From: an uncultured Candidatus Saccharibacteria bacterium
Lineage (GTDB): Bacteria; Patescibacteriota; Saccharimonadia; Saccharimonadales; JAGQNJ01
NCBI GenBank assembly: GCA_964510945.1
Contig: CAZEED010000001.1
Coordinates: 98,774-162,773, forward strand
Reading direction: 5' to 3'
DNA: 64,000 bases
The notes beneath the pieces are model-generated. The model worked only from the letters and a program-made list of their open reading frames with translations, had not been told where the DNA came from and did no database searches. Both the position numbers and the translations under genes were made by a program. Of this stretch, positions 30,889 to 48,727 are shown piece by piece; position 1 is the stretch's first letter, and the number at the start of each line of letters is the position of its first letter.

Positions 30889-31092
30889 ATGATTTCTGAA
30901 ACTGTCGGACGGTTTAAAAGAAACGTGGCTGATCAATTAGTCCAGCACGAAGATAGGCTAAGAACTTCGTTTGAAGATCAGGAAAATAATATCCGCCTAA
31001 ACTTTGAAGTTGCAGGTTTAAGCGTTGTCCATGCTTTAGCAAGTTTAGCAGTAACAACAGTTGAAATATTAACACCTAGGAGTACAGAATAA
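30889..31092 (+). CDS. Possible 67-aa ORF filling the rpsG-fusA spacer
   Basis: ATG 30889 is 5 nt after the rpsG stop; its TAA abuts the fusA ATG (TAAATG); the fusA SD AGGAG lies inside it; no homology recognised. Confidence 0.3.
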   Translation: MISETVGRFKRNVADQLVQHEDRLRTSFEDQENNIRLNFEVAGLSVVHALASLAVTTVEILTPRSTE

Positions 31093-35869: not shown

Positions 35870-36034
35870 TTTCTTATTTTATGTACTCTATTAACTATAA
35901 TTAAGAGTTAAAAGAATAATCCAAAAATGATTCTTTACTTGTATGCGTATTTTCGCTATTATATTCAGGTATCTCGCGTGAGTATTATATACTTATGCTA
36001 AATAATTAAGTAATTAACAGGAGTAACAACTAAA

Positions 36035-37216
36035 ATGGCAGATTTTGATCGAAGTAAACCACACGTAAACGTTGGAACAATGGGGCACGTTGACCATGGT
36101 AAAACAACACTAACAGCAGCAATTACAGCTGTACTAGCTAAAAAGCTTCCTAGCGACGTTAACAAACCAGTTAAATACGACGAAATTGACAAAGCACCAG
36201 AAGAAAAAGCACGTGGTATAACAATTGCGACATCTCACCAAGAATACGAGAGTAAAAAACGACACTACGCACACGTTGATATGCCAGGTCACGCTGACTA
36301 CGTCAAGAACATGATTACAGGTGCCGCACAGATTGACGGAGCGATTCTAGTAGTATCAGCTGCAGATGGCCCTATGCCTCAAACACGAGAACACGTACTA
36401 CTCGCAAAACAGGTCGGCGTTCCATCGATACTTGTATTCATGAACAAGATGGACCTTGCAGATCCAGAACTAGTTGAACTAGTAGAAATGGACATTCGTG
36501 AACTACTCGGCAAATACGAATTCGACGAGAACGCTCCAATTATTAAAGGTTCTGCAACTAAAGCTCTTGAAGGTAGTGCCGCAGATGAAGATGCCGTTAT
36601 GGAACTTGTCGACAAGATGGACGAATATGTTCCAGAACCAAAACGAGACCTTGATAAAGACTTCTTGATGGCTATTGAAGACGTTTTCTCAATTAAAGGA
36701 CGCGGAACTGTAGCAACCGGTCGTATTGAACAAGGAGTTGTTAAGGTAAACGAAGAAGTTGAAATTGTCGGTATCCATGATACAAAAAAGACTGTTGTTA
36801 CAGGTGTAGAGATGTTTAAAAAGAATCTAGATCAAGGTCAGGCTGGAGATAACGTCGGAATCTTACTTCGAGGTATCGAACGTGATGATATCGAACGTGG
36901 TCAAGTTTTGGCTAAACCCGGTTCAATTACGCCTCACACAGAATTTGACGCAGAAGTATACGTGCTAACAAAAGAAGAGGGTGGACGACACACCCCATTC
37001 TTTAAAGGTTACAAACCTCAATTCTACTTCCGAACAACGGACGTTACAGGTGAGGTAGAACTACCGGCTGATAAAGAAATGGTCATGCCTGGTGATACAG
37101 TAACTTTCAAGGTTAAATTGATCCAACCGATTGCTATGGATCAAGGTCAACGATTCGCCATCCGTGAAGGTGGACGAACAGTTGGCGCCGGTGTTGTAAC
37201 AAAAATTACAAAATAA
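36035..37216 (+). CDS. tuf: Elongation factor Tu
   Basis: 393 aa; [25 protein letters not shown]. Confidence 0.98.
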
Positions 37217-37250
37217 TAGTCCTTCCGCCACAAGGCAGACGAGAAGCCAA

Positions 37251-37279
37251 AAAGAGCCTCCAAAACAGAGGCTCTTTTC
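37251..37279 (+). terminator. Intrinsic terminator after tuf
   Basis: AAAGAGCCTC-CAAAACA-GAGGCTCTTT, T-rich tail. Confidence 0.7.
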
Positions 37280-37402
37280 ATATTTATCATTTTGTTATAC
37301 AATACAGTAACAAACTAATCGTAATGACTAAAAGTCGTTGTATATGATCTATTTATCATTGCAAAGATGTTACATTACACCCATAAAGAAAGGTATTTTT
37401 AT

Positions 37403-37789
37403 ATGGCTGAAGCCGATAAGACACAACCAACAAAAAAGCCAGCAGCAAAGTCTGCTGATCTAAAAGAAAAGGCCGTAGCTTCTACGAGTCAAAGGATTCG
37501 GATCCGATTAAAGGCTTATGATCATAAAGTAATTGATCAGGCTACAAAACAAATTGTCGATACTGCAATTCGTACAGGTGCTAATATTGCAGGACCAATC
37601 CCACTGCCAACAAGAAGAACCGTCTATACAGTCGTAAAAAGTCCGCATGTCTTTAAAAAAGGCCGAGAGCAGTTCGAGATGCGTACGCACAAACGACTCA
37701 TTGACGTATTAGAACCAACCCCTAAGACAATTGACTCGTTAATGAACCTAAGTCTGCCCGCTGGTTGCGATGCAGAAATTAAAATGTAG
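37403..37789 (+). CDS. rpsJ: 30S ribosomal protein S10 (with about 25-aa Lys/Ala-rich N-extension)
   Basis: ORF 37367-37789; start at ATG 37403; core [18 protein letters not shown]...RTHKRLIDV. Confidence 0.93.
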
Positions 37790-37798
37790 ATTTCTTGT

Positions 37799-37975
37799 AT
37801 ACTTTTGTGCCGGCAAAAGTATGGCAAAACCTCGGGCTATCCGTTTGTCTTTACATATCTTCTTGTCAATAATCACAACAGCCTGCGGAACTCATCCGCC
37901 TGCTGGCGGACTCAAACAGTCCTCGGCATTCTAGTTGTGATTTTGACGAAGTTAATCAGGACAAGCCGGAGGCCC
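37799..37975 (+). repeat. Structured foldback element, copy A (5' hairpin ATACTTTTG/CAAAAGTAT plus long imperfect stem with variable apical hairpin)
   Basis: Alignable with 53015-53206 (+) and 53277-53467 (-). Conserved blocks ACAACAG(C/T)CTGCG(G/A)AAC and CA(A/G)ACAGTCCTCG(G/C)C; helices maintained by paired substitutions. Confidence 0.65.
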
Positions 37976-38013
37976 AAACAACATCATCGAAAATATAATG
38001 ATACAATACGTTT

Positions 38014-38277
38014 ATGGCAAAAAAACAAAAACGTATAAGAGAAACAGACGATGCATATTTCTTAAAACTAGTATTATTCATGATCTTGGGATCAATGTGG
38101 TTAAAAGTCAGTGATGGTCAATCTTGGCAAATTCCGTTACCCATAGGACTAGTTTTCGGAATACTACTGGCGAGACATGACCATTTTAGGATAGATCGTA
38201 AAATAGAATATGCTGTGCTACTAATTGCAGCGTTTGTGGGTTTTTGGGCGCCAATAGGGATTTATATTAATCTGTAA
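38014..38277 (+). CDS. Small hydrophobic protein (about 3 TM) inserted between rpsJ and rplC
   Basis: 87-aa ORF; TACAAT (38002-38007) lies 6 nt before the ATG, no SD; no family recognised. Confidence 0.45.
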   Translation: MAKKQKRIRETDDAYFLKLVLFMILGSMWLKVSDGQSWQIPLPIGLVFGILLARHDHFRIDRKIEYAVLLIAAFVGFWAPIGIYINL

Positions 38278-38433
38278 TATACACAACATATTGACAGAGG
38301 TAAGTTATTCGTGTTAATCTGTTATGGTATCAAGAAAAACCTTGGTGATTCTAGTGAAGGTTTGCTCGTTTTAACAGGGGCAAAAACCACATAAGAGCCA
38401 ATTTTTTTATGCAAATAAACGAAAGGTTAGATA

Positions 38434-39057
38434 GTGGACTTTAAGAGTCTTATTACAACTAAAATTGGAACAACAAGCACCATCGCTGAAGATGGTAGTG
38501 TTGAAGCAATTACTCTATTGTCGGCCACACCTAATACAATTACTCAGATAAAGACTGATGAAACTGATGGATACACTGCTATCCAACTAGGTTTTGAAGA
38601 TAAGAATAAATCAAAACTAGGCAAAGCACTTCTAGGACACGTCAAAAAATCTAAAGTAATGCCAAGAATTATCAAAGAAGTGCGTATTAATGAATTAAAT
38701 GAAGAACATAGCGTCGGCCAACAATTTACAGCCGACGTTTTTAGTGTTGGCGACATTGTTGATGCATCCGGTGTAAGTAAAGGAAAAGGCTGGGCTGGAA
38801 CAATTAAACGACACAACTTCCATCGTGGACGTAAAACACATGGTGGACGTAGTTATCGACGACCGGGTTCAATTGGATCAATGTATCCCCAAAAGATTTT
38901 TAAAGGTAAGAAAATGGCCGGACAAATGGGCAACGAAAACGTAACTGTTAAGAATTTAAAAGTTACTATTGTTGACGTTGAAAAGAATATTATTGGGGTA
39001 AAAGGGGCTGTCCCTGGTCCAAAACGCGGTACTGTAGTGCTGAGGGGAGTGAAATAG
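38434..39057 (+). CDS. rplC: 50S ribosomal protein L3
   Basis: GTG start; [22 protein letters not shown]. Confidence 0.95.
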
Positions 39058-39058
39058 A

Positions 39059-39694
39059 ATGCAAGCCTCAACTTTTACCAAGACTGGTTCAAAAGCTACC
39101 TCAGCTACATCTTTGAATAAAGATATTTTTGGTCTAGAAGTGAAATCTACAGATTTATTGAAAAAAGCATATCTAGCAAACCAAGCAAAAGGGCGACACA
39201 CACCTGCTGTAACTAAACTTCGCGGAGAGGTCCGTGGTGGTGGTCGTAAGCCGTGGAGACAAAAAGGCACTGGTAATGCACGTGTTGGCTCGATTCGTAG
39301 CCCAATCTGGCGTGGCGGAGGGATAACCTTTGGCCCAACAGGAAATGAGAATCACGAAATTAGAATGTCTAAAACTGAGAAACGCACTGCTACAAAACAG
39401 GCATTGAGTCTAAAAACTAAAGATATATGTGTAATTGACAGTTTTGATATTAAAGATAAACCAATGACTAACAAAGTCTCCAAAGTTTTAGACAAAATTG
39501 CACCGAATAAGAAATTTCTAGTTGTGATTGATAAATCAGATGATACAACAAGCCAAACTTTCCGAAATATAGAGAAGGTTAGACTAATCACCGCTAATTC
39601 ACTTTGTGTCGCAAATGTACTCGATGCAGACAAAATACTCGTTACTAAAGACGCGCTAGCATTAATCTCAGAGAACTTAGGAGCTAAAAAATGA
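39059..39694 (+). CDS. rplD: 50S ribosomal protein L4
   Basis: [30 protein letters not shown]. Confidence 0.96.
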
Positions 39695-40191
39695 GCGCCA
39701 CAGCCGTAAAACCAACTACTCCTACCAAAAAATCAACTAAGCCAAGTACGGTTACTGGTATGTTGATGGCTTTAAAACCCAGAATTAGCGAAAAATCATA
39801 TACTTCAGCCGACATAGATAATGTTTACATATTTGAAGTACCAAAATCTGCTAACAAACATACAATTACCCGAGCTGTAGAATCTCAGTTTTCAGTAAAA
39901 GTATCTGATGTCAGAACAGTTAATGTTGTAGGCAAGCCAAAACGAGCGGTCAGAAAGCGACAAAGACCAGCCAGCGGTAAACGCAAAGACATCAAGAAAG
40001 CTTACGTTGGCCTTATTGTAGGTGATAGTATTAATATTTTCGGTAATGATGAGAAAAAGACAAAAACCGCAAAATCCGAAAAACCAGCTCAAGAAGCTAA
40101 AGCTACTGAGAAAGTTCAGAAAAAGTCTGGCTTAAGAGGCGCGTTCAATCGTGGTCCACGTCATACTCAAGATAAAGGCGGAGGTAAGTAA
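39691..40191 (+). CDS. rplW: 50S ribosomal protein L23 (N- and C-terminal extensions)
   Basis: Core [26 protein letters not shown]; 166 aa, against roughly 100 aa for most bacterial L23. Confidence 0.92.
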
Positions 40192-41045
40192 TGGCTATTA
40201 AGTATTACAAACCAACTACTCCAGCGAGACGAGGTATGACTAACCGTGACTTTACGCAAGTTACCGCAAAAAAACCTCTTAAATCTTTAACGACAATCAA
40301 AACTAGGACAAATGGACGTAACAACAGCGGTCGAATTACCGTTAGACATCGTGGTGGTGGCGCAAAACGATTCTACAGAAATGTAAATTTCAAACTATCA
40401 CCAGGTACTTCCGCTACTGTAGAAGCTATAGAATATGATCCTAATAGAACAGCTCATATCGCCAGAATCAAAGATAATGAAGGCAAGTATCACTACATTA
40501 TCGCACCAACAGGCGTTAAAGTAGGAGCAAAGATTGAGTGCGGGGAAGAAGTCCCTATCGAAAAAGGAAATCGACTAATATTAAAGAACATTCCAATCGG
40601 TAGTAGTATTCACAGTATTGAACTCGTCCCAGGACAAGGTGCAAAGCTGGTTAGATCTGCTGGTGCATCAGCACAGTTGGCAGCTAGAGAAGGAGAATAC
40701 GCCCAGATCAAGTTACCTAGCGGCGAAGTACGGTTGGTAAACATTAAATGTAGCGCGAGTCTAGGTGGAGTAGGTAATATTTCACACCAGAACGTGAAAT
40801 ATGGGTCTGCCGGTAGAAAACGACACATGGGCTTTAGACCATCCGTAAGAGGTGTTGTAATGAATGCTGTAGATCACCCACATGGTGGTGGTGACGGCGG
40901 AAGACACGGTATTGGTGGCGGTAAAAACCACGGTTCTGCACCACGAACGCCTTGGGGCCAAAAAACACTTGGTTACAAGACTAGGCGACGAAAAATTAGT
41001 AATAAATTTATTGTCCGTTCACGACATGAAAGTAAGAGGAGATAG
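40191..41045 (+). CDS. rplB: 50S ribosomal protein L2
   Basis: [31 protein letters not shown]. Confidence 0.97.
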
Positions 41046-41047
41046 AT

Positions 41048-41323
41048 ATGAGTCGATCACTTAAAAAAGGACCATATATTGACTTTAAGCTTGCTAAGAA
41101 AGTGGAAGCTTTAGCTAAAGAAGACCGTACAATTATCAAAACTTGGGCAAGATCTTGTACTATTCCTCCAGAATTCGTTGGACGAACGATCGCTGTTCAT
41201 AACGGTAAGGTTCACGTTCCGGTTTTTGTATCAGAGAATATGGTTGGTCATAAACTCGGCGAATTTTCTCCTACACGAAAATTCCGATCACACGGCGGTA
41301 AACTAGCGAAAGGTCAGAAATGA
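41048..41323 (+). CDS. rpsS: 30S ribosomal protein S19
   Basis: [10 protein letters not shown]...[18 protein letters not shown]. Confidence 0.97.
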
Positions 41324-41712
41324 GTGTAAAAGCTATTGCTAAAGGTGTACAGATAAGCCCACGAAAAGTTGAAGTGGTTGCTGATTTAGTACGCAATCAA
41401 TCTGTTAAGAACGCTCTTACTATTTTGGAGCATACACCTCGCCGTAGCGCAGTAGCAGTTCAAAGCGTTATTAAATCTGCAAAAGCCAACGCCGAGAATA
41501 ATCATAACTACAAGCCTGATACTTTAACAATCACCGAGATATTTGTTACATGCGGCCCAAGAATGAAACGTTTTAGACCAGCAGCACGTGGCCGAGCATT
41601 ACCTTTCCAGAAAAAGTCATCACATATTCGAGTAGTTGTTGATGGCGAAAAACGAGTAGTAAAGAAAAAAACTGAATCAGTATCAGCAAATGCTAAAAAG
41701 GAGTCAAAATAA
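41320..41712 (+). CDS. rplV: 50S ribosomal protein L22
   Basis: [15 protein letters not shown]...[21 protein letters not shown]. Confidence 0.95.
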
Positions 41713-41819
41713 TGTTTTTCGTAAGGAAAAAGAGCAGCCAGATCCAGCGAATTTATTTCGCTGACCTGCGCGATGAGAAAAAACGTAGTTTTGTCTCATG
41801 GACCGGAGGGACGATATAA
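41712..41819 (+). CDS. Possible 35-aa basic peptide ORF between rplV and rpsC
   Basis: [35 protein letters not shown]; TAATG overlap with the rplV stop and TAATG overlap with the rpsC start. Confidence 0.3.
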   Translation: MFFVRKKSSQIQRIYFADLRDEKKRSFVSWTGGTI

Positions 41820-42448
41820 TGGGTCAAAAAGTAAATCCAATTAGCATGCGACTTCAAGCCAACAAAGATTGGCGTAGTAAATGGTTTGCTAACAAACGTG
41901 AATACCCAAAATATCTAAAACAAGATCTTGATGTCCGGCAATTGATCATAACTAAGCTTGGTACAAGGGCCTCAATCAACAAGGTTGATATTGAACGCTC
42001 GCCAAATCTTGTTACTGTGACTATTGTTACCGCAAAAGCCGGTGTAGTAATCGGACGAGGTGGTACAGGCGCAACAGAGCTAAAAACCGCAATTGAAAAA
42101 ATCTATGGCGTCCCAACCAGAGTAAATATCGAAGAAATTAAAAAACCAGAATTATACGCAAAATTAGTCGCCGAAAACATTGCCTTTCAATTACAACGAC
42201 GAATATCGTTTAGACGAGCAATTAAAATGGCAGCTCAAAATACAATGCGCTCTGGAGCTAAAGGTATCAGAATCCAGGTGTCAGGACGACTTAATGGTGC
42301 AGAGATGGCTAGACGAGAGAAAGAAATTCAAGGTAGCGTGCCTCTTCACACAATTAGAGCCGATATTGACTACGCCTACGTTCCTGCCCAAACACCAGCT
42401 GGAGTTATAGGGATTAAAGTATGGATTTATAAAGGAGAGGTAGCTTAG
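41819..42448 (+). CDS. rpsC: 30S ribosomal protein S3
   Basis: ORF 41798-42448; start ATG 41819 behind GGAGGG; [14 protein letters not shown] domain. Confidence 0.95.
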
Positions 42449-42450
42449 TC

Positions 42451-42870
42451 ATGTTAATGCCTAAACGGTCAAAGTTTAGAAAAGCCCGAAAAGGCCGTAT
42501 TACTGGTGTGGCAACCAGAGGTAACTCTATTGCTTTTGGTACATATGCACTGCAAGCCCAAGGCATTGATCGAATTACTTCTAGACAAATCGAAGCTGCC
42601 CGACAAGCTATGACAAGATATGTTAAGCGTGGTGGAAAGATTTGGATCAGAATTTTTCCTCACACTCCAGTTACACGAAAACCTCAAGACGTAAAAATGG
42701 GAAGTGGAAAAGGAAACCCAGAATTTTTCGTTGCAAAAGTTCGACCAGGGACAATTTTGTTTGAGATGCAAGGCGTAGAAGAAGAAATCGCGCGAGAAGC
42801 GATGAGACTTGCTAGTCATAAACTACCGGTCAAGACCAAGTTTTTGGTTAGAGAGGATGGATCACAATGA
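42451..42870 (+). CDS. rplP: 50S ribosomal protein L16
   Basis: [16 protein letters not shown]... Confidence 0.96.
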
Positions 42871-43067
42871 AATTAGCAGAAATCCGAAAACTACCTACAA
42901 AGAGTCTGACAGAGCAATCCACGAAAATTAGAGAAGAGATTGCTGATATGAGACGTCAATATGCACTAGGAGAAATCCAGAACACTAGAGGAATACGAAA
43001 TAAACGAAAAGAATTAGCTAGAATACTGACCGTGTTAGGCGAAGAGCTAGTGAAGGAGACGAAATAA
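42867..43067 (+). CDS. rpmC: 50S ribosomal protein L29
   Basis: 66 aa, position and helical L29 pattern (EIRKL...[22 protein letters not shown]). Confidence 0.9.
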
Positions 43068-43345
43068 TGGCAAAACAATTTACCGGTATCGTAACAAGTG
43101 ATAAAGCCGACAAAACTATAGTCGTGACTATTTCTGTTAAGAAAACTCATCCAATTTATCGAAAGCAATTTACAGAGACTAATAAAATAATGGCGCATGA
43201 TGAAAAAAACGAAGCAAAAATTGGAGACAAAGTAATTATTTCAGAAACTAGGCCAATTAGTTCACGCAAGTCATTTAAGCTAGATAAAATCGTTGAGCGT
43301 CCGGTTCTTCAATTGACTAGCGATGACAAAGGGGACGAAAAGTGA
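43067..43345 (+). CDS. rpsQ: 30S ribosomal protein S17
   Basis: [14 protein letters not shown]...[25 protein letters not shown]. Confidence 0.94.
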
Positions 43346-43710
43346 TACAACAAGAATCTAGACTAGTTGTGTGTGACAACAGCGGTGCAAAAGAGATTCT
43401 CTGCATACGTGTTCTTGGTGGTAGCCGTAAAAGATACGCACGGGTAGGTGACGTTATCGTTGCGACAGTAAAAGACGCTAGTCCATCTGGAAACGTGAAG
43501 AAAAAGTCCGTTGTTAGGGCTGTTGTGGTACGCACGAAATACGTAATCAACCGTAGAGACGGATCGTCAATCAAATTTGACGATAATGCCGCGATCATAA
43601 TTGGAGACGACAAACTACCTAAAGCCACTAGAATATTTGGTCCCGTACCAAGAGAACTTCGTGAAATGGGCTACAGTAAAATTGTTTCTCTCGCACCGGA
43701 GGTACTGTAA
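43342..43710 (+). CDS. rplN: 50S ribosomal protein L14
   Basis: [27 protein letters not shown]. Confidence 0.97.
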
Positions 43711-43982
43711 TGAATGAACAAGTATACAAGATCAAATTGAAGCTTAACGATACTGTGGAAGTTATTTCTGGCAAATACAAAGGCAAAAAAGGCAAAGTTG
43801 TCAAAACTCATCCAAAACTTAACAAAGTTACAGTTGAAGGTATCAATATTGTTAAAAAACATCAAAAAAAGCCAAACAAAAAATACCCACAAGGTGGAAT
43901 TATCGAATTAACTCAACCGATATGGGTATCCAAAGTCAAATTGTCTACCAAAGCTACAGGAAGCAAAGGAGTTAAGAAATGA
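43710..43982 (+). CDS. rplX: 50S ribosomal protein L24
   Basis: KOW motif [13 protein letters not shown]. Confidence 0.93.
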
Positions 43983-44578
43983 CCGACGTAAGGACAAACT
44001 CCAAAATGCCTGTACGACTTAAAGCTCAGTATCAAACTGAGATTAGAAAACAGTTAATGGACGAACTAAAGCTGAGCAATATAAACGAAGTTCCTAAGCT
44101 AGAAAAAATTGTGTTAAATATTGGCCTTGGTAAAGCTAAGGATGATAAAAAAGCTATGGAAGTTGCGACTACTACACTAAAGAAAATTACTGGTCAAACA
44201 CCAGTTCAGACTTTAGCTAAAATCTCTGTTGCCGGCTTTAAGCTCCGAGAAGGTAACAAAATTGGCCTCAAAGTAACGCTTAGAGGTGACAAGATGTACG
44301 AATTTTTAGATCGATTAATCAACATAGTACTACCACGACTTCGAGATTTTCATGGTTTAAGCCTGAAATCTTTTGATAAACAGGGAAATTACAGTATCGG
44401 AATAGTTGATCAAACTGTTTTTCCTGAAATTACCTTCGAAGATAGTCCAATGACTCATGGTCTTCAAGCAGTTATAGTTACTAATTCTTTAGAAAAAGAA
44501 CATTGCAAGGCGCTACTAGAGAAATTTGGTCTGCCGTTTGAAAAAGAGTCAGATAATGATAAAGGAAAGGAGAACTAG
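43979..44578 (+). CDS. rplE: 50S ribosomal protein L5
   Basis: Position; [38 protein letters not shown]. Confidence 0.95.
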
Positions 44579-44580
44579 CA

Positions 44581-44850
44581 ATGGCAAAAAAATCAATGAT
44601 TGCAAGAGATTTAAAGCGTCAAAAGATGATAATGAAATATGCTGCAAAACGAGCTGAGTTGAAATCTGTTGGAGATCAAGAAGGACTTGCTAGATTACCG
44701 AAAAATTCATCTCCTTCGCGATGGAATAACCGTTGTCTTGAGACTGGTCGATCTCGAGGTTATATGAGAACTTTTGGACTTTCAAGAATATCGTTCAGAG
44801 AACATGCAAACAAAGGGGAGATACCTGGTGTCACAAAATCAAGTTGGTAA
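44581..44850 (+). CDS. rpsN: 30S ribosomal protein S14 (long, non-zinc form)
   Basis: [25 protein letters not shown]...PGVTKSSW. Confidence 0.94.
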
Positions 44851-44854
44851 TAAT

Positions 44855-45265
44855 ATGAAAATCGTAGGCAGTACTTCAACTGATCCAATCGCTGATATGC
44901 TCAGTCGTATCAGGAACGCTATTTTAGTCCATAAAACAGAGATTATGGTTCCTCATTCAAAGTTGAAAAAGGCTGTCCTTCAAGTTCTTGTAGATAATAA
45001 TTTTATCTCAAAGTACGAAGAAATCTCGCTTGGAGTAGGTAAAGTTTTGAAAGTTACTATCAATACCCCAAGTGAAAATGCAAGAATTACGCACATCTCG
45101 AGGATTAGTAAGCCTGGACGCCGAATGTATGTAAAATCAAAGGACATTCCTAAAGTAAAACATGGTAGAGGAATTGTGATAGTCTCAACATCGAAAGGGC
45201 TGGTCACGGATAAGCAAGCTAGAGCTCAGGCTTTAGGCGGAGAGTTGATCTGTAAGGTATATTAA
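44855..45265 (+). CDS. rpsH: 30S ribosomal protein S8
   Basis: ORF 44774-45265; start at ATG 44855 after the rpsN stop; DPIADMLSRIRNA. Confidence 0.94.
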   Translation: MKIVGSTSTDPIADMLSRIRNAILVHKTEIMVPHSKLKKAVLQVLVDNNFISKYEEISLGVGKVLKVTINTPSENARITHISRISKPGRRMYVKSKDIPKVKHGRGIVIVSTSKGLVTDKQARAQALGGELICKVY

Positions 45266-45267
45266 TT

Positions 45268-45804
45268 ATGAGTAGAATAGGCAAATTACCAATAAATGTA
45301 CCTAGTAATGTGACAGTGTCTGTTGATAATGGCATTATTAAGGTTAATGGTCCAAAAGGTGAATTAACAGAAAACGTTCTTGTTGGAGTTAAAATCGAAC
45401 AAAAAGATAACCTTATAACAATTACAAGAAATTCTGACAGTAAAATTGACAAATCCAACCACGGCCTAATGCGAAGCTTAATCAATAATATGGTCATTGG
45501 TGTAACTGAAGGATTCAAAAAAGAACTAGAAGTTACGGGAGTAGGTTTTAGAGTAGCCGTATCTGGCAATGTACTAAAACTAAAAGTCGGATTTTCTCAT
45601 GAAATTGAATATAAATTCCCTGAAGGCATCAATGTATCAGTTGAGCAGAACAAAATAACAGTTGAAGGCATTAGCAAGCAACAAGTTGGTCAAACGGCCG
45701 CAGAAATCCGATCTTTTAAGAAACCTGAGCCATATAAAGGTAAAGGTATCAGCTACGTAGGCGAAAGAATTCTACGAAAAAGCGGTAAGTCAGGTAAAGA
45801 ATAG
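45268..45804 (+). CDS. rplF: 50S ribosomal protein L6
   Basis: [15 protein letters not shown]...; two L6 repeats. Confidence 0.95.
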
Positions 45805-45812
45805 GTAAGATT

Positions 45813-46163
45813 ATGAATAGATTATTTAAAAAACAAACTAATTTGTTTAGACGAAAAGCTCGAATTCGAAAGAAGATTTCTGGAACGACAGAAAGACCTC
45901 GAATGAGCGTTCATATTAGTAACAAGAATATTACGATTCAATTGATTGACGATAGCAAACATACTACTTTAGTGGAATTGAACACATACAAAGAAAAGAA
46001 CAAGAGCCTAACAGACAAAGCAGTGTTAGCCGGCACTGAAATTGCTAAAAAAGCTAAAGCAAAAAAGATTAAGACTGTAGTGTTTGACCGTAACGGTAAG
46101 TTATATCATGGACGTATTAAAGCTCTTGCGGATGCAGCAAGAAAAGAAGGATTGGAGTTCTAG
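45813..46163 (+). CDS. rplR: 50S ribosomal protein L18
   Basis: [33 protein letters not shown]. Confidence 0.94.
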
Positions 46164-46727
46164 ATGTACCAGAAACAGACAGATAGAAAAAATGTTTTTG
46201 AAGAAAAACAATTTGACGAACGAATGGTGCACATAGATAGAGTTGCTAGAGTTGTAAAAGGTGGACGTCGATTCAGATTTCGTGCTCTAGTCATTGTAGG
46301 CGATCACAAAGGGAAAATCGGTGTAGGGACTTCTAAAGGCGCAGACGTTACAACAGCAGTAACCAAAGCAACTGACGTTGCTAAAAAGAATATGGTTCAG
46401 ATAAGCCTATATAACGATACAATCCCTCATGAATCACAAGCAAAAGTTAGTGGTGCAAAAATCCTAGTAAAGCCGGCAAGCCCAGGTACAGGTCTAATAG
46501 CTGGTGGAGTTGTGCGAGTCGTTCTAGAAGTAGCTGGTATTAAAAATGCTCTATCTAAGTCACTAGGTTCAAGTAATAAGATTAATATTGCTTATGCGAC
46601 AGTTGAAGCACTTAAAGCAATCGAGCCTATGAAAAATTGGGTAACGACATCCGATAAGCCTAAATCCGTAAAAAAGACCACAAAATTATCAGAAAAAGCT
46701 AAAGCATTAGATGAGGCCAAAGTATGA
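46164..46727 (+). CDS. rpsE: 30S ribosomal protein S5 (C-terminal extension)
   Basis: RVARVVKGGRRFRFRALVIVGDHKGKIGVGTSKG. Confidence 0.95.
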   Translation: MYQKQTDRKNVFEEKQFDERMVHIDRVARVVKGGRRFRFRALVIVGDHKGKIGVGTSKGADVTTAVTKATDVAKKNMVQISLYNDTIPHESQAKVSGAKILVKPASPGTGLIAGGVVRVVLEVAGIKNALSKSLGSSNKINIAYATVEALKAIEPMKNWVTTSDKPKSVKKTTKLSEKAKALDEAKV

Positions 46728-47185
46728 AATATAACGAGTTAGAGCTAAAAAGCTATAAAAAAACCCGCCGAAAGGGTCGGGGTATTGGTTCTGGCGCCGG
46801 TAAAACGGCTGGTCGTGGAACAAAAGGTCAAAACTCTAGAACTGGTGGTGGCGTAAGGATAGGATTCGAAGGTGGCCAAACTACGTTAATGCAAAAAATG
46901 CCGAAAAAACGTGGTTTTACATCTCATCGTACAAAACCAATCGCTATTACACTGGACAAATTGAGCCTAATAAAAGGAAAAATAACTAACCAAGCAGTTT
47001 TTGAGACAAGATTAGTAGACGATGTTTACCTTCCTATAAAAGTTTTATCCGCTAAAAAAGATATTCCAAAGATGTCAATTGAACTTCAAGCTATATCAAG
47101 CGGGGCCTTAAAACAATTAGAAAAAGCCGGTGGCAGTTTTAAGAAAATCGATAATCCAAAACGTAGTAAAAAAGAAAAAGTTTAA
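46724..47185 (+). CDS. rplO: 50S ribosomal protein L15
   Basis: RKGRGIGSGAGKTAGRGTKGQNSR; overlaps rpsE directly, leaving no room for rpmD. Confidence 0.94.
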   Translation: MKYNELELKSYKKTRRKGRGIGSGAGKTAGRGTKGQNSRTGGGVRIGFEGGQTTLMQKMPKKRGFTSHRTKPIAITLDKLSLIKGKITNQAVFETRLVDDVYLPIKVLSAKKDIPKMSIELQAISSGALKQLEKAGGSFKKIDNPKRSKKEKV

Positions 47186-47233
47186 AGCTACGAAATACAG
47201 TATTATATATAGTAATAACTAATTGAGGGTTTT

Positions 47234-48727
47234 ATGAGCTGGAAAACAATATGGCTGTCTTTTAAGAACAAGGATATGCGAAAACGGATTTTTGCCGTTC
47301 TCGGAATGCTATTTATTTTTAGAATACTCGCACATATTCCCATACCATTAGCCGACGGGGCCACTTTAAAGCAAATATTAGAGACTCTATTTGCTTCCAA
47401 AGATACTCCTCAACTACTTAGCTTTATAGATGTTTTATCTGGTGGAGCTTTAGCAAAATTCTCCATTATGCTAGTTGGTCTTGGGCCTTACATTAACGCA
47501 TCAATCATTATGCAGTTATTAACTAAGGCAATACCAAAGCTTGAAACTTTAAATAAAGAAGGCGAGTACGGGCGAAAAAAGATTAATCAATATACTAGAA
47601 TGTTAGCTCTGCCGCTTGCAGTCATTCAATCAATTGGAACAATATTCTTGGTAAGACAGACCGCTAGTCAGATCGGTGGTCTTGGCGACATCACTGCCAA
47701 CACTTCGATTGCTCAGTGGGCCTTGATGGTTACTGCGTTAACTGGTGGCTCTATGCTACTAATGTGGTTAGGCGAATTAATTACAGAAGAAGGTATCGGA
47801 AATGGTATCTCACTAGTGATTACCGTTGGTATTGTTAGCCGATTACCTAGCACTATATCATCCATTGCAAATGCAATATTTAAAGAAGGCGCCAAGACAA
47901 ATGTACTTGGTTTTACCTTACCGATTGATACCGATGCGTTACTATACGCCTTACTTATTGCTGGAACCGTAATTTTAGTTACAGTACTAGTAGTCAAGCT
48001 CAACGAAGCTTCCAGGAACCTTACTATTCATTATGCTAAACGAGTACAGGGAAATAGGGCCTATGGAGGCGTCCAGACCACTTTGCCAATAAAACTCATT
48101 ACAGCTGGAGTCATACCTATTATATTCGCTGTAGCGTTCTTAAGTGTCCCTAGCTTCGCAGGACAATTGATGAGTTCATCGAGCAATCCAAATATCCAAT
48201 CTTTAGGGCTTAATTTGACTCAATGGTTCCAACAACCAACCCCTCAGTCCTTCGCCGCAGGTGGCCTGCAACCATACATATATCCAATTGTATATTTTAC
48301 CTTAGTGTTTGCATTTACGTTTTTCTATACAAATATCACCTTCAACTCTCAAGAAATAGCCGAGAACCTTCAAAAACAAGGTGGATTCTTCTCAGGAGTT
48401 AGATCAGGTAAGCAAACTGAAAAATACCTATCAAAAATGGTCAACAAATTAACCTTATTCGGCGCCTTAAGCCTTGGAGCGTTGGCCGTTTTCCCGATAA
48501 TACTACAAGCCTTTATAAATACGAGTATCGCATTGCAAGGGACAAGTATTCTGATTTTAGTGGCTGTGGCACTTGAGACACTTCGACAGATTGAATCTCG
48601 AGCATTAATGGTAACTTACGACCAATATGATCAACCTGATTTCTTTTACGATACTTCTGATCCTGCAAGTGCCGCAACAGGGGGGAGAAGATTGCGATTT
48701 CGTGGACGAAAAAAATCAAAAAAATAA
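47234..48727 (+). CDS. secY: Preprotein translocase subunit SecY (basic C-terminal extension)
   Basis: 497 aa, 10 hydrophobic segments, position after rplO; LGPYINASIIMQLL, GISLVITVGIV. Confidence 0.95.
   Translation: MSWKTIWLSFKNKDMRKRIFAVLGMLFIFRILAHIPIPLADGATLKQILETLFASKDTPQLLSFIDVLSGGALAKFSIMLVGLGPYINASIIMQLLTKAIPKLETLNKEGEYGRKKINQYTRMLALPLAVIQSIGTIFLVRQTASQIGGLGDITANTSIAQWALMVTALTGGSMLLMWLGELITEEGIGNGISLVITVGIVSRLPSTISSIANAIFKEGAKTNVLGFTLPIDTDALLYALLIAGTVILVTVLVVKLNEASRNLTIHYAKRVQGNRAYGGVQTTLPIKLITAGVIPIIFAVAFLSVPSFAGQLMSSSSNPNIQSLGLNLTQWFQQPTPQSFAAGGLQPYIYPIVYFTLVFAFTFFYTNITFNSQEIAENLQKQGGFFSGVRSGKQTEKYLSKMVNKLTLFGALSLGALAVFPIILQAFINTSIALQGTSILILVAVALETLRQIESRALMVTYDQYDQPDFFYDTSDPASAATGGRRLRFRGRKKSKK

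What the first reader, a model, noticed from the sequence alone, without database searches (positions are those of the whole stretch)
41712..41819. 35-codon ORF exactly filling an unusual 105-nt gap between rplV and rpsC, coupled by TAATG at both ends
Seen: the rplV stop overlaps an ATG (TAATG at 41710-41714). That frame runs 35 codons ([35 protein letters not shown]) and its TAA overlaps the rpsC ATG (TAATG at 41817-41821). The rpsC SD GGAGGG lies within its last codons.

Established: L22 and S3 genes are normally separated by only a few nucleotides, and ATGA/TAATG overlaps are typical of translational coupling in r-protein operons.

Inference: this is a small basic peptide co-translated with r-proteins. 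It could be a lineage-specific ribosome-associated microprotein or a coupling/relay ORF.
Basis: partly seen in the sequence, partly recalled or inferred. Interest (0 to 1): 0.5.

Follow-up and report, generated by a model that had tools for sequence, protein, structure and literature searches.

The report
Mobile relay mini-ORF between ribosomal genes
The 35-codon ORF is real, but it is the pass-through reading frame of a small, structured, mobile DNA insert that settles at stop/start overlaps between essential genes in Saccharibacteria, apparently keeping downstream translation coupled rather than encoding a functional microprotein.

Summary
In detail: rplV ends at 41712, a 35-codon ORF runs 41712-41819, and rpsC starts at 41819, with TAATG at both ends.

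The 106-nt spacer is an insertion. The two closest species (L001, L002) and one strain contig (L087) have rplV and rpsC abutting. Homologous ~100-nt copies sit at other junctions in sister strains (L23|L2, L29|S17).

In more distant Saccharibacteria the family occurs at L3|L4, S17|L14, S12|S7, rpoB|rpoC, atpH|atpA and ftsE|ftsX. A profile search found 328 distinct called peptides.

Every junction copy keeps an open frame that starts at the upstream stop. It ends at, or in one copy 17 nt past, the downstream start. The start-to-start distance is 2 mod 3 in 19 of 19 copies.

Conservation is at nucleotide and structure level, not codon level:
- Identity by codon position is flat (0.82/0.79/0.77, against 0.75/0.86/0.44 in rpsC).
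- One conserved block is read in two frames.
- Two hairpins show 17 of 22 pairs with compensatory changes.

Across Saccharibacteria, 25 of 25 and then 32 of 41 large junction gaps hold such ORFs.

Best reading: a MIRU-like intercistronic element whose ORF relays translational coupling. Translation itself and the mobility mechanism are inferred.

The parts
41320..41712 (+). rplV (ribosomal protein uL22, 130 aa). Its stop TAA lies at 41710-41712.
   Evidence: ORF list. Relatives are 95-97% identical in Saccharibacteria MAGs. Pfam Ribosomal_L22 is recorded on identical strain genes.
41698..41703 (+). Shine-Dalgarno AAGGAG inside the last codons of rplV, 8 nt before the mini-ORF ATG. In relatives without the insert the equivalent SD serves rpsC directly.
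   Evidence: Sequence. Empty sites read ...AAGGAGGCTAAGTAA(C)ATGGGTC.
41710..41714 (+). Left stop/start overlap TAATG (rplV TAA and mini-ORF ATG).
41712..41819 (+). 35-codon relay ORF ([35 protein letters not shown]).
   Evidence: Called as a gene in Logan assemblies. It belongs to a family of 328 distinct called peptides.
41715..41821 (+). Inserted segment relative to empty sites (107 nt). The boundaries can slide by the 6-nt direct repeat ATAATG that flanks it.
   Evidence: Empty versus filled sites. Direct repeats of 3-21 nt in 19 copies. nhmmer and CM hits cover 41710-41821 / 41712-41819.
41724..41739 (+). Near-invariant purine-rich block AGGAAAAAGAGCAGCC (consensus AGGGAAAAGAGCAGCC). It is mostly unpaired. 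Its last three bases start helix 1.
   Evidence: Alignments A4 and A6.
41737..41771 (+). Hairpin 2: outer helix 41737-41741 with 41766-41771, inner stem 41745-41751 with 41757-41763.
   Evidence: the repeat finder I4. RNAalifold. All 6 inner pairs and 4 of 5 outer pairs show compensatory changes.
41773..41799 (+). Hairpin 3: ATGAGAAAAAAC / GTTTTGTCTCAT, an 11-bp stem with a 3-nt loop.
   Evidence: the repeat finder I3. Pair counts. G-U at one pair in 9 copies points to folding of the sense strand.
41805..41810 (+). Element-borne Shine-Dalgarno GGAGGG, 8 nt before the rpsC ATG.
   Evidence: CCGGAGG or AAGGAGG stands at the same place in other copies.
41817..41821 (+). Right stop/start overlap TAATG (mini-ORF TAA and rpsC ATG).
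41819..42448 (+). rpsC (ribosomal protein uS3, 209 aa).
   Evidence: The N-terminus MGQKVNP is universal in relatives. The in-frame upstream ATG at 41798 is not conserved in other copies.

Best explanation
The spacer is one copy of a ~100-110-bp dispersed, strain-polymorphic insertion element of Saccharibacteria. The element lodges at stop/start overlaps (TAATG or ATGA) between translationally coupled genes. It works like the mycobacterial MIRUs.

Proposed mechanism (inferred):
1. The element is transcribed as part of the S10-operon mRNA.
2. Ribosomes ending rplV at UAA restart on the overlapping AUG at 41712. They use the AAGGAG that formerly served rpsC.
3. They read 35 codons through two conserved hairpins.
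4. They stop at the UAA that overlaps the rpsC AUG.
5. They restart on rpsC with the SD the element brings (GGAGGG).

In this way the insert would leave uS3 synthesis coupled to uL22, and only copies built this way would survive. That would explain the sense orientation, the open frame, and the start-to-start distance of 2 mod 3.

The peptide would be a by-product. What is conserved is the nucleotide sequence and the two-hairpin fold, presumably for the element's own propagation or an RNA-level role.

Shown here: the architecture, the insertion polymorphism, the family, ORF retention beyond chance, nucleotide-level conservation and covariation.

Inferred: that the ORF is translated, that coupling is preserved, and how the element moves.
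For: Insertion and polymorphism:
- The insert is absent in the closest relatives L001 (S3 99.5% aa) and L002, and in L087.
- It is present in at least 12 strain contigs.
- Homologous copies occur at L23|L2 and L29|S17 in sister strains in all combinations.

Family reach:
- Copies occur in distant Saccharibacteria at L29|S17, L23|L2, S17|L14 and L22|S3.
- They also occur at L3|L4, atpH|atpA, rpoB|rpoC (a tandem dimer), S12|S7 and ftsE|ftsX.
- 328 distinct peptides were found.

ORF retention:
- 25 of 25 large junction gaps are ORF-filled against 2.95 expected; the log10 product of P is -35.5.
- Replication gave 32 of 41, against 1 of 13 in distant lineages.
- 19 of 19 copies have an ATG start and a period of 2 mod 3.

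Not codon-level:
- Invariant columns by codon position are 14/14/15 of 32 each, and identity is .74/.68/.75. The rpsC control gives .75/.86/.44.
- With 21 copies identity is .815/.79/.77.
- Compensated frameshifts and two reading frames over one conserved block were seen.

Structure:
- 97% of cells are paired, against 36-50% when the partners are slid.
- 8 of 22 pairs (MAFFT alignment) and 17 of 22 pairs (CM alignment) show compensatory changes. 0 of 500 shuffles reach the observed values.

Precedent:
- MIRUs insert at start codons, with an ORF coupled to the downstream gene (PMC12548453 section 11; PMC3184786 section 9).
Against: - There is no direct evidence of translation (no Ribo-seq or proteomics).
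- No mobilising enzyme was identified.
- There are no terminal inverted repeats.
- Flanking direct repeats vary from 3 to 21 nt, so classical transposition is unproven. Homology-mediated spread or gene conversion is possible.
- Blocks REKSS and LRDEKNR are read in the same frame in all copies. A peptide-level constraint on those parts cannot be strictly excluded.
- Most loci were fetched through r-protein genes or through called peptides. Copies without ORFs or outside operons are therefore under-sampled. One diverged antisense intergenic copy was seen (L175 1370-1475).
- SD sequestration by the fold is not conserved. The need for ORF translation to expose the rpsC start is therefore not demonstrated.
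Confidence: 0.75

Rival explanations
1. The ORF encodes a functional small basic protein, for example ribosome-associated, that is co-expressed with r-proteins.
For: - The frame is always open.
- The peptide is basic.
- The N-terminal two thirds (REKSSQSxRI[YH][FS]xxLRDEKNR) are similar in over 100 called peptides and are always read in one frame.
Against: - There is no third-position relaxation, while adjacent rpsC shows it strongly.
- Block 1 shows zero synonymous but several non-synonymous changes.
- F/S changes track synonymous changes on the opposite stem arm.
- The C-terminal third is read in two frames.
- The L29|S17 copies shift frame across hairpin 2.
- The insert is absent in the closest relatives and polymorphic between strains.
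- It is also found in the rpo, atp and fts operons.
- There is no Pfam match.
Confidence: 0.06
2. The conserved two-hairpin module is a cis-acting RNA with a host function. Candidates are an mRNA processing or stability site, or a tuner of gene stoichiometry inside operons. The ORF is only needed so that ribosomes pass through it.
For: - Covariation is strong, and G-U pairs occur on the sense strand.
- There is a near-invariant unpaired purine block.
- All junction copies are in sense orientation.
- The sequence is far more conserved than synonymous sites of neighbouring genes.
Against: - Presence or absence varies among strains at 95-100% identity.
- The same module sits at at least 10 different junctions in unrelated operons.
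- There is no Rfam family at E<=1.
- A diverged antisense intergenic copy keeps the fold, which fits a DNA element better.

This rival is not mutually exclusive with the best explanation.
Confidence: 0.15
3. It is a chance open frame in a neutral spacer, or an assembly artefact.
For: Taken alone, 13.9% of shuffles of this spacer stay open.
Against: - The insert occurs in at least 12 independent assemblies.
- The family-wide ORF retention and the 2 mod 3 period in 19 of 19 copies argue against chance.
- The other five frames are almost always closed.
Confidence: 0.02

Closest known systems
Mycobacterial interspersed repetitive units (MIRUs; Supply et al. 1997, as summarised in PMC12548453 and PMC3184786)
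   Same: - Both are short (40-100 bp) repeats inside operons, co-oriented with the genes.
- Both are inserted at start codons.
- Both contain an ORF whose ends overlap the flanking genes' stop and start, so coupling is kept.
- Both show empty and filled sites with short direct repeats.
- Both have internal inverted repeats.
- A tandem dimer exists here too (L184, unit 78 nt).
   Different: - The phylum is different (Saccharibacteria/CPR).
- Sequence relation to MIRUs was not tested.
- Copies are mostly single units rather than VNTR arrays.
- The element carries its own strong SD.
- It has a two-hairpin fold with extensive covariation.
- It colonises the S10/spc/str r-protein, rpoBC and atp operons.
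Rickettsia palindromic elements (RPE) and other repeats fused in-frame to genes (PMC3184786 section 15)
   Same: Both are small palindromic mobile repeats that survive inside translated sequence because one frame stays open. In both, the peptide sequence is a by-product.
   Different: RPEs sit inside coding sequences and become part of the host protein. Here the element forms a separate mini-cistron between two genes, with its own start, stop and SD.
REP/BIME, ERIC and Correia-type intercistronic repeats
   Same: All are about 100-bp or shorter structured repeats that are co-transcribed within operons and polymorphic between strains.
   Different: Those elements are untranslated. Many have terminal inverted repeats or a RAYT partner. 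This element has no terminal inverted repeats and is always spanned by an ORF at junctions.
Relay or 'delivery' short ORFs and synthetic bicistronic designs (PMC12548453 section 11)
   Same: In both, a short upstream ORF whose stop overlaps the next start delivers ribosomes and removes dependence on local mRNA structure.
   Different: Here the relay ORF is carried by a dispersed insert. It is coupled at both ends, not only downstream.

Membership tests
MIRU-like intercistronic coupled repeat (functional class) | Short repeat present at several loci, with presence or absence differing between related genomes | tested here: met
   There are three sites in the species complex and at least 10 junction types overall. 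Empty and filled sites were compared.
MIRU-like intercistronic coupled repeat (functional class) | Lies between co-oriented genes of an operon, in the same orientation | tested here: met
   All junction copies are on the gene strand. One diverged antisense copy lies in a non-junction intergenic region.
MIRU-like intercistronic coupled repeat (functional class) | Internal ORF whose start and stop overlap the flanking stop and start | tested here: met
   TAATG or ATGA occurs at one or both ends in most copies. 19 of 19 copies have an ATG start and a period of 2 mod 3.
MIRU-like intercistronic coupled repeat (functional class) | Short direct repeats flanking filled sites | tested here: met
   The repeats are 3-21 nt and always include the start codon. 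The variable length leaves the mechanism open.
MIRU family proper (mycobacterial) | Sequence homology to MIRU consensus; tandem VNTR arrays | not tested
   No mycobacterial sequence was compared. Only one tandem dimer was seen (L184). The element is therefore not filed as a MIRU, only as working like one.
MITE | Terminal inverted repeats | tested here: not met
   The repeat finder on 41690-41840 shows only internal hairpins and no end-to-end inverted repeat.
Known structured RNA family (r-protein leader, ribozyme, riboswitch) | Match to an Rfam covariance model | tested here: not met
   There were no hits at E<=1 in 36000-48000 and only four tRNA genes at gathering score in the whole window.
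Conserved functional small protein | Codon-level purifying selection (third-position relaxation, frame conservation) | tested here: not met
   See (flat identity by codon position; frame changes; no Pfam match).
Translated, coupled cistron | Ribosome occupancy or peptide detection | not testable with these tools
   Only sequence signals are available: an SD 8 nt upstream, an ATG, and overlap with the rplV stop.

The most novel reading that the evidence does not exclude
The two-hairpin module with its invariant purine block may be a previously undescribed functional RNA. It could spread between stop/start junctions, either as an RNA-level mobile element or as a recruited module that sets ribosome flow or mRNA processing inside the core operons of CPR bacteria. 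In that case the r-protein, RNA polymerase and ATP synthase operons of Saccharibacteria would carry an extra, portable layer of translational control.
Probability: 0.13. Interest if true: 0.8.

Novelty: new member of a known kind. Interest (0 to 1): 0.55.

Why it matters
The S10/spc operons are among the most conserved gene arrays in bacteria. Here they are repeatedly invaded by small inserts; one Saccharibacteria contig carries nine gap-filling junction ORFs in 8.6 kb, six of them copies of one ~40-codon repeat family. Every surviving insert is built to pass ribosomes on.

This is a natural, replicated experiment on how strongly translational coupling and continuous translation are selected in essential operons. 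It gives a portable natural 'bicistronic design' part.

It also matters for annotation. Hundreds of 33-45-aa 'hypothetical proteins' in CPR genomes are probably relay frames of repeats, not microproteins.

The element's presence or absence is a strain marker.

Tried and rejected
- Rfam at E<=1 around the site and at gathering score over the window gave nothing but tRNAs.
- Pfam on the peptide and on four other junction or intergenic ORF products gave no significant match; the 87-aa ORF hit Acyl_transf_3 at E 0.005, below the curated cut-off.
- An exact-pattern scan of metagenome contigs with a strict 44-nt pattern gave 0 hits because the pattern was too strict. The family was later found in the same collection through an S3 alignment query.
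- A viral contig scan gave 0 hits.
- Single-sequence HMMER against 1.84 billion representatives gave only 2 hits. The profile search was far more sensitive.
- No terminator was found. A promoter-like TTGTCT-18-TATAAT at 41791-41820 is not conserved in other copies and would start transcription inside rpsC.
- An alternative rpsC start at ATG 41798 is rejected. It is not conserved, and MGQKVNP is the universal N-terminus.
- SD sequestration by hairpin 3 was seen in the single-sequence fold but is not in the consensus fold.
- Terminal inverted repeats are absent.
- Supply et al. 1997 is not held in the library, so MIRU features are taken from two reviews.
- No transposase search of the window was made.

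Full report
**1. Observation**

The window reads exactly as described.
- rplV occupies 41320-41712, a 35-codon ATG ORF occupies 41712-41819, and rpsC starts at 41819.
- TAATG lies at 41710-41714 and at 41817-41821.
- GGAGGG lies at 41805-41810, 8 nt before the rpsC ATG.
- A second SD, AAGGAG (41698-41703), sits in the last codons of rplV, 8 nt before the mini-ORF ATG.
- All other junctions of the S10/spc cluster in the window are -4 to +8 nt.

On its own the open frame is weak evidence. 13.9% of dinucleotide shuffles of the interior remain open.

**2. The spacer is an insertion**

A scan with uL22 returned about 40 Saccharibacteria loci.
- The two closest (L001: uL22 95%, uS3 99.5% identical; L002: 97% and 94%) have rplV and rpsC abutting, as TAA-C-ATG or TAATG.
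- Exact look-ups of the peptide and of uL14 returned 14 strain contigs that are 91-100% identical in the flanking genes.
- Of the 13 that span the rplV|rpsC junction, 12 carry the same insert, with two single-base variants (one V4A, one synonymous). L087 lacks it.

**3. It is one copy of a repeat family**

In the same strains, homologous 100-106-nt inserts sit at two junctions that are tight in the window. These are rplW|rplB (L084, L086, L089, L093, L087) and rpmC|rpsQ (L082/L092, L087, L088, and species L001). All presence/absence combinations occur.

Comparing empty and filled sites shows where the insert lies. It follows ...AAATAATG and itself ends in ...CCGGAGG-N7-9-(A)AATAATG. It therefore takes over the old start codon and SD, and supplies a new SD, stop and start for the downstream gene.

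**4. Family reach**

An S3-alignment scan of metagenome contigs found the same family in distant Saccharibacteria (S3 65-77% identical). The sites were L29|S17, L23|L2, S17|L14 and L22|S3.

A profile of eight family peptides found 328 distinct called peptides of 33-64 aa. Contexts were sampled for nine of them:
- L3|L4
- L22|S3 (three further genomes)
- S3|L16 and L29|S17 (further copies in one of those contigs, L182)
- S12|S7
- rpoB|rpoC (a tandem dimer with a 78-nt unit)
- atpH|atpA
- ftsE|ftsX

One diverged copy lies antisense in a non-junction intergenic region (L175 1370-1475). Only one copy is present in the 64-kb window.

**5. What is conserved**

(a) The open frame.
- 19 of 19 copies start with ATG at the upstream stop.
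- All 19 have an ATG-to-ATG distance of 2 mod 3.
- The L29|S17 copies carry -3, -2 and -1 deletions that sum to a multiple of three.
- Copies with a 1-nt insertion in the hairpin-3 loop adjust their tail length.

(b) Not the peptide.
- Invariant columns are spread 14/14/15 over codon positions.
- Pairwise identity is .74/.68/.75 (7 lineages) and .815/.79/.77 (21 copies).
- rpsC in the same genomes gives .75/.86/.44.
- The conserved block GGTTTGTCTCAT is read as RFVS in about half of the peptides and as VCLI in the rest.
- F/S changes follow synonymous changes on the opposite stem arm.

(c) The fold.
- There are two hairpins (41737-41771 and 41773-41799) with 22 pairs.
- 97% of cells are paired, against 36-50% when partners are slid.
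- 8 pairs (MAFFT alignment) or 17 pairs (model-fitted alignment) show compensatory changes, and 0 of 500 shuffles reach the observed values.
- G-U at one pair in 9 copies indicates that the sense strand folds.
- The purine block AGGGAAAAGAGCAGCC is nearly invariant although mostly unpaired.
- No Rfam family matches.

**6. The phenomenon is general in Saccharibacteria**

- In 434 junctions of 45 loci, gaps are bimodal. All 25 analysed gaps over 60 nt hold an ORF that starts at the upstream stop and ends at the downstream start, against 2.95 expected. The other five frames are almost always closed. One further 78-nt gap (L008 L23|L2) was set aside. Its open frame runs from inside L23, which looks like a frameshifted L23 tail.
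- In an independent set of 685 junctions, 32 of 41 large gaps in loci with S3 at least 60% identical meet a strict rule.
- The nine failures break down as follows. One is the same family reading 17 nt into rpsC. One is an N-terminal extension of L29. One is a pair of overlapping ORFs. One is an ORF coupled only at its stop. Five are at S8|L6; one of these shows a terminator-like hairpin with a promoter-like site, and two are 0.9-1.1-kb inserts.
- More distant lineages show 1 of 13.
- Several unrelated insert families exist. Many are built of short tandem repeats forming palindromes. In L009 the heptamer CAGATAA is mutated exactly where a perfect repeat would give an in-frame TAA.

**7. Mechanism**

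What is shown:
- the architecture;
- the insertion polymorphism;
- ORF retention beyond chance;
- nucleotide- and structure-level conservation.

What is inferred:
- Ribosomes terminating on rplV reinitiate at the overlapping AUG, using the former rpsC SD.
- They translate through the hairpins and terminate on the rpsC AUG.
- They reinitiate there with the element's SD.
- The insert would therefore be nearly neutral, and inserts that break the relay would be purged.

Continuous translation may also protect against polarity and mRNA decay (established general knowledge, not tested here).

How the element moves is unknown. There are no terminal inverted repeats. Flanking direct repeats are 3-21 nt and often include the SD. 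This is compatible with target duplication or with homology-mediated insertion.

**8. Comparison with known systems**

The closest known kind is the mycobacterial MIRU. [quoted passage not shown]

The present family works like a MIRU but is not filed as one. Sequence relation was not tested, arrays are rare, and it has its own SD and a covarying two-hairpin fold.

Other comparisons:
- RPEs are in-frame inside genes.
- REP, ERIC and Correia elements are untranslated.

Literature searches found nothing of this kind reported for Saccharibacteria.

**9. Verdict**

- The relay reading is supported.
- The microprotein reading is not supported.
- It is a new member of a known kind, of moderate to good interest.

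Caveats:
- Translation has not been measured.
- Sampling is biased towards r-protein loci and called ORFs.
- A host RNA function for the fold is not excluded.

Noticed in passing
window 30889-31092: A 67-codon ORF fills the 208-nt gap between rpsG (S7, ends 30884) and fusA (starts 31093). It starts 5 nt after the S7 stop and ends 1 nt before the fusA ATG. It has no Pfam match. It looks like a second gap-filling junction ORF of another type in the same window.
   Followed up: partly
window 38014-38277: An 87-aa hydrophobic ORF lies in the unusual 644-nt gap between rpsJ and rplC. It is called as a gene in several strain contigs (L085-L090). Its only Pfam hit is weak and sub-threshold (Acyl_transf_3).
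   Followed up: partly
L001 1894-2229; also L004, L006, L009, L010, L011, L102, L107, L110, L117, L118, L124: Many Saccharibacteria carry an 84-145-aa ORF filling a 250-440-nt gap between rplB and rpsS. It is coupled at both ends. It is absent from the window (gap 2 nt). The L001 product has no Pfam match. Homology among these ORFs was not examined.
   Followed up: partly
L124 870-8109: One metagenome contig has nine gap-filling ORFs in 8.6 kb of the S10/spc operon. Six are copies of a different ~120-nt family (MSKMLQHFRSEEIGVRS...) with long palindromes and a GACTGAAAGGAGC 3' end.
   Followed up: partly
L021 890-1117 and L023 4430-4648: Homologous 72-75-aa junction ORFs sit at different junctions (L22|S3 and S17|L14). 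Their 3' halves give weak hits to the element's covariance model, with hairpin 3 fully replaced by compensatory changes. They are possibly composite elements.
   Followed up: partly
L183 828-1400: This contig is 100% identical to window 40885-41799. It then switches, exactly at the end of hairpin 3, to unrelated sequence followed by a DprA-like gene. It is either an assembly chimera through another copy of the repeat or a rearrangement.
   Followed up: partly
L175 1370-1475 (minus strand): A diverged copy of the element lies antisense in the intergenic region between ftsX and a peptidase M23 gene. Both hairpins are kept through compensatory changes, and one frame is still open on its own strand.
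   Followed up: partly
L009 254-379 and 2376-2501: Heptamer repeats (CAGATAA)n inside two junction inserts are altered (CAGACTA, CAGACAA) at the unit where a perfect repeat would create an in-frame TAA.
   Followed up: yes
L086 1037-1287, L088 1163-1413, L089 251-501: In these strain contigs, two small called ORFs (53 and 30 aa) lie between tuf and rpsJ. The window has only a 150-nt gap there.
   Followed up: no
many loci, 3' ends of inserts (e.g. L009 2984-3006, L015 2478-2501, window 41802-41812): Unrelated insert families share a 3' motif GACCnnAGGGAG / GACYGRAAGGAGC just before the downstream start. This is more than a bare SD. It hints at a superfamily or a common recognition site.
   Followed up: no
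window 41791-41820: A promoter-like match TTGTCT-18 nt-TATAAT (10 of 12) overlaps the rpsC start. It is not conserved in other copies.
   Followed up: yes
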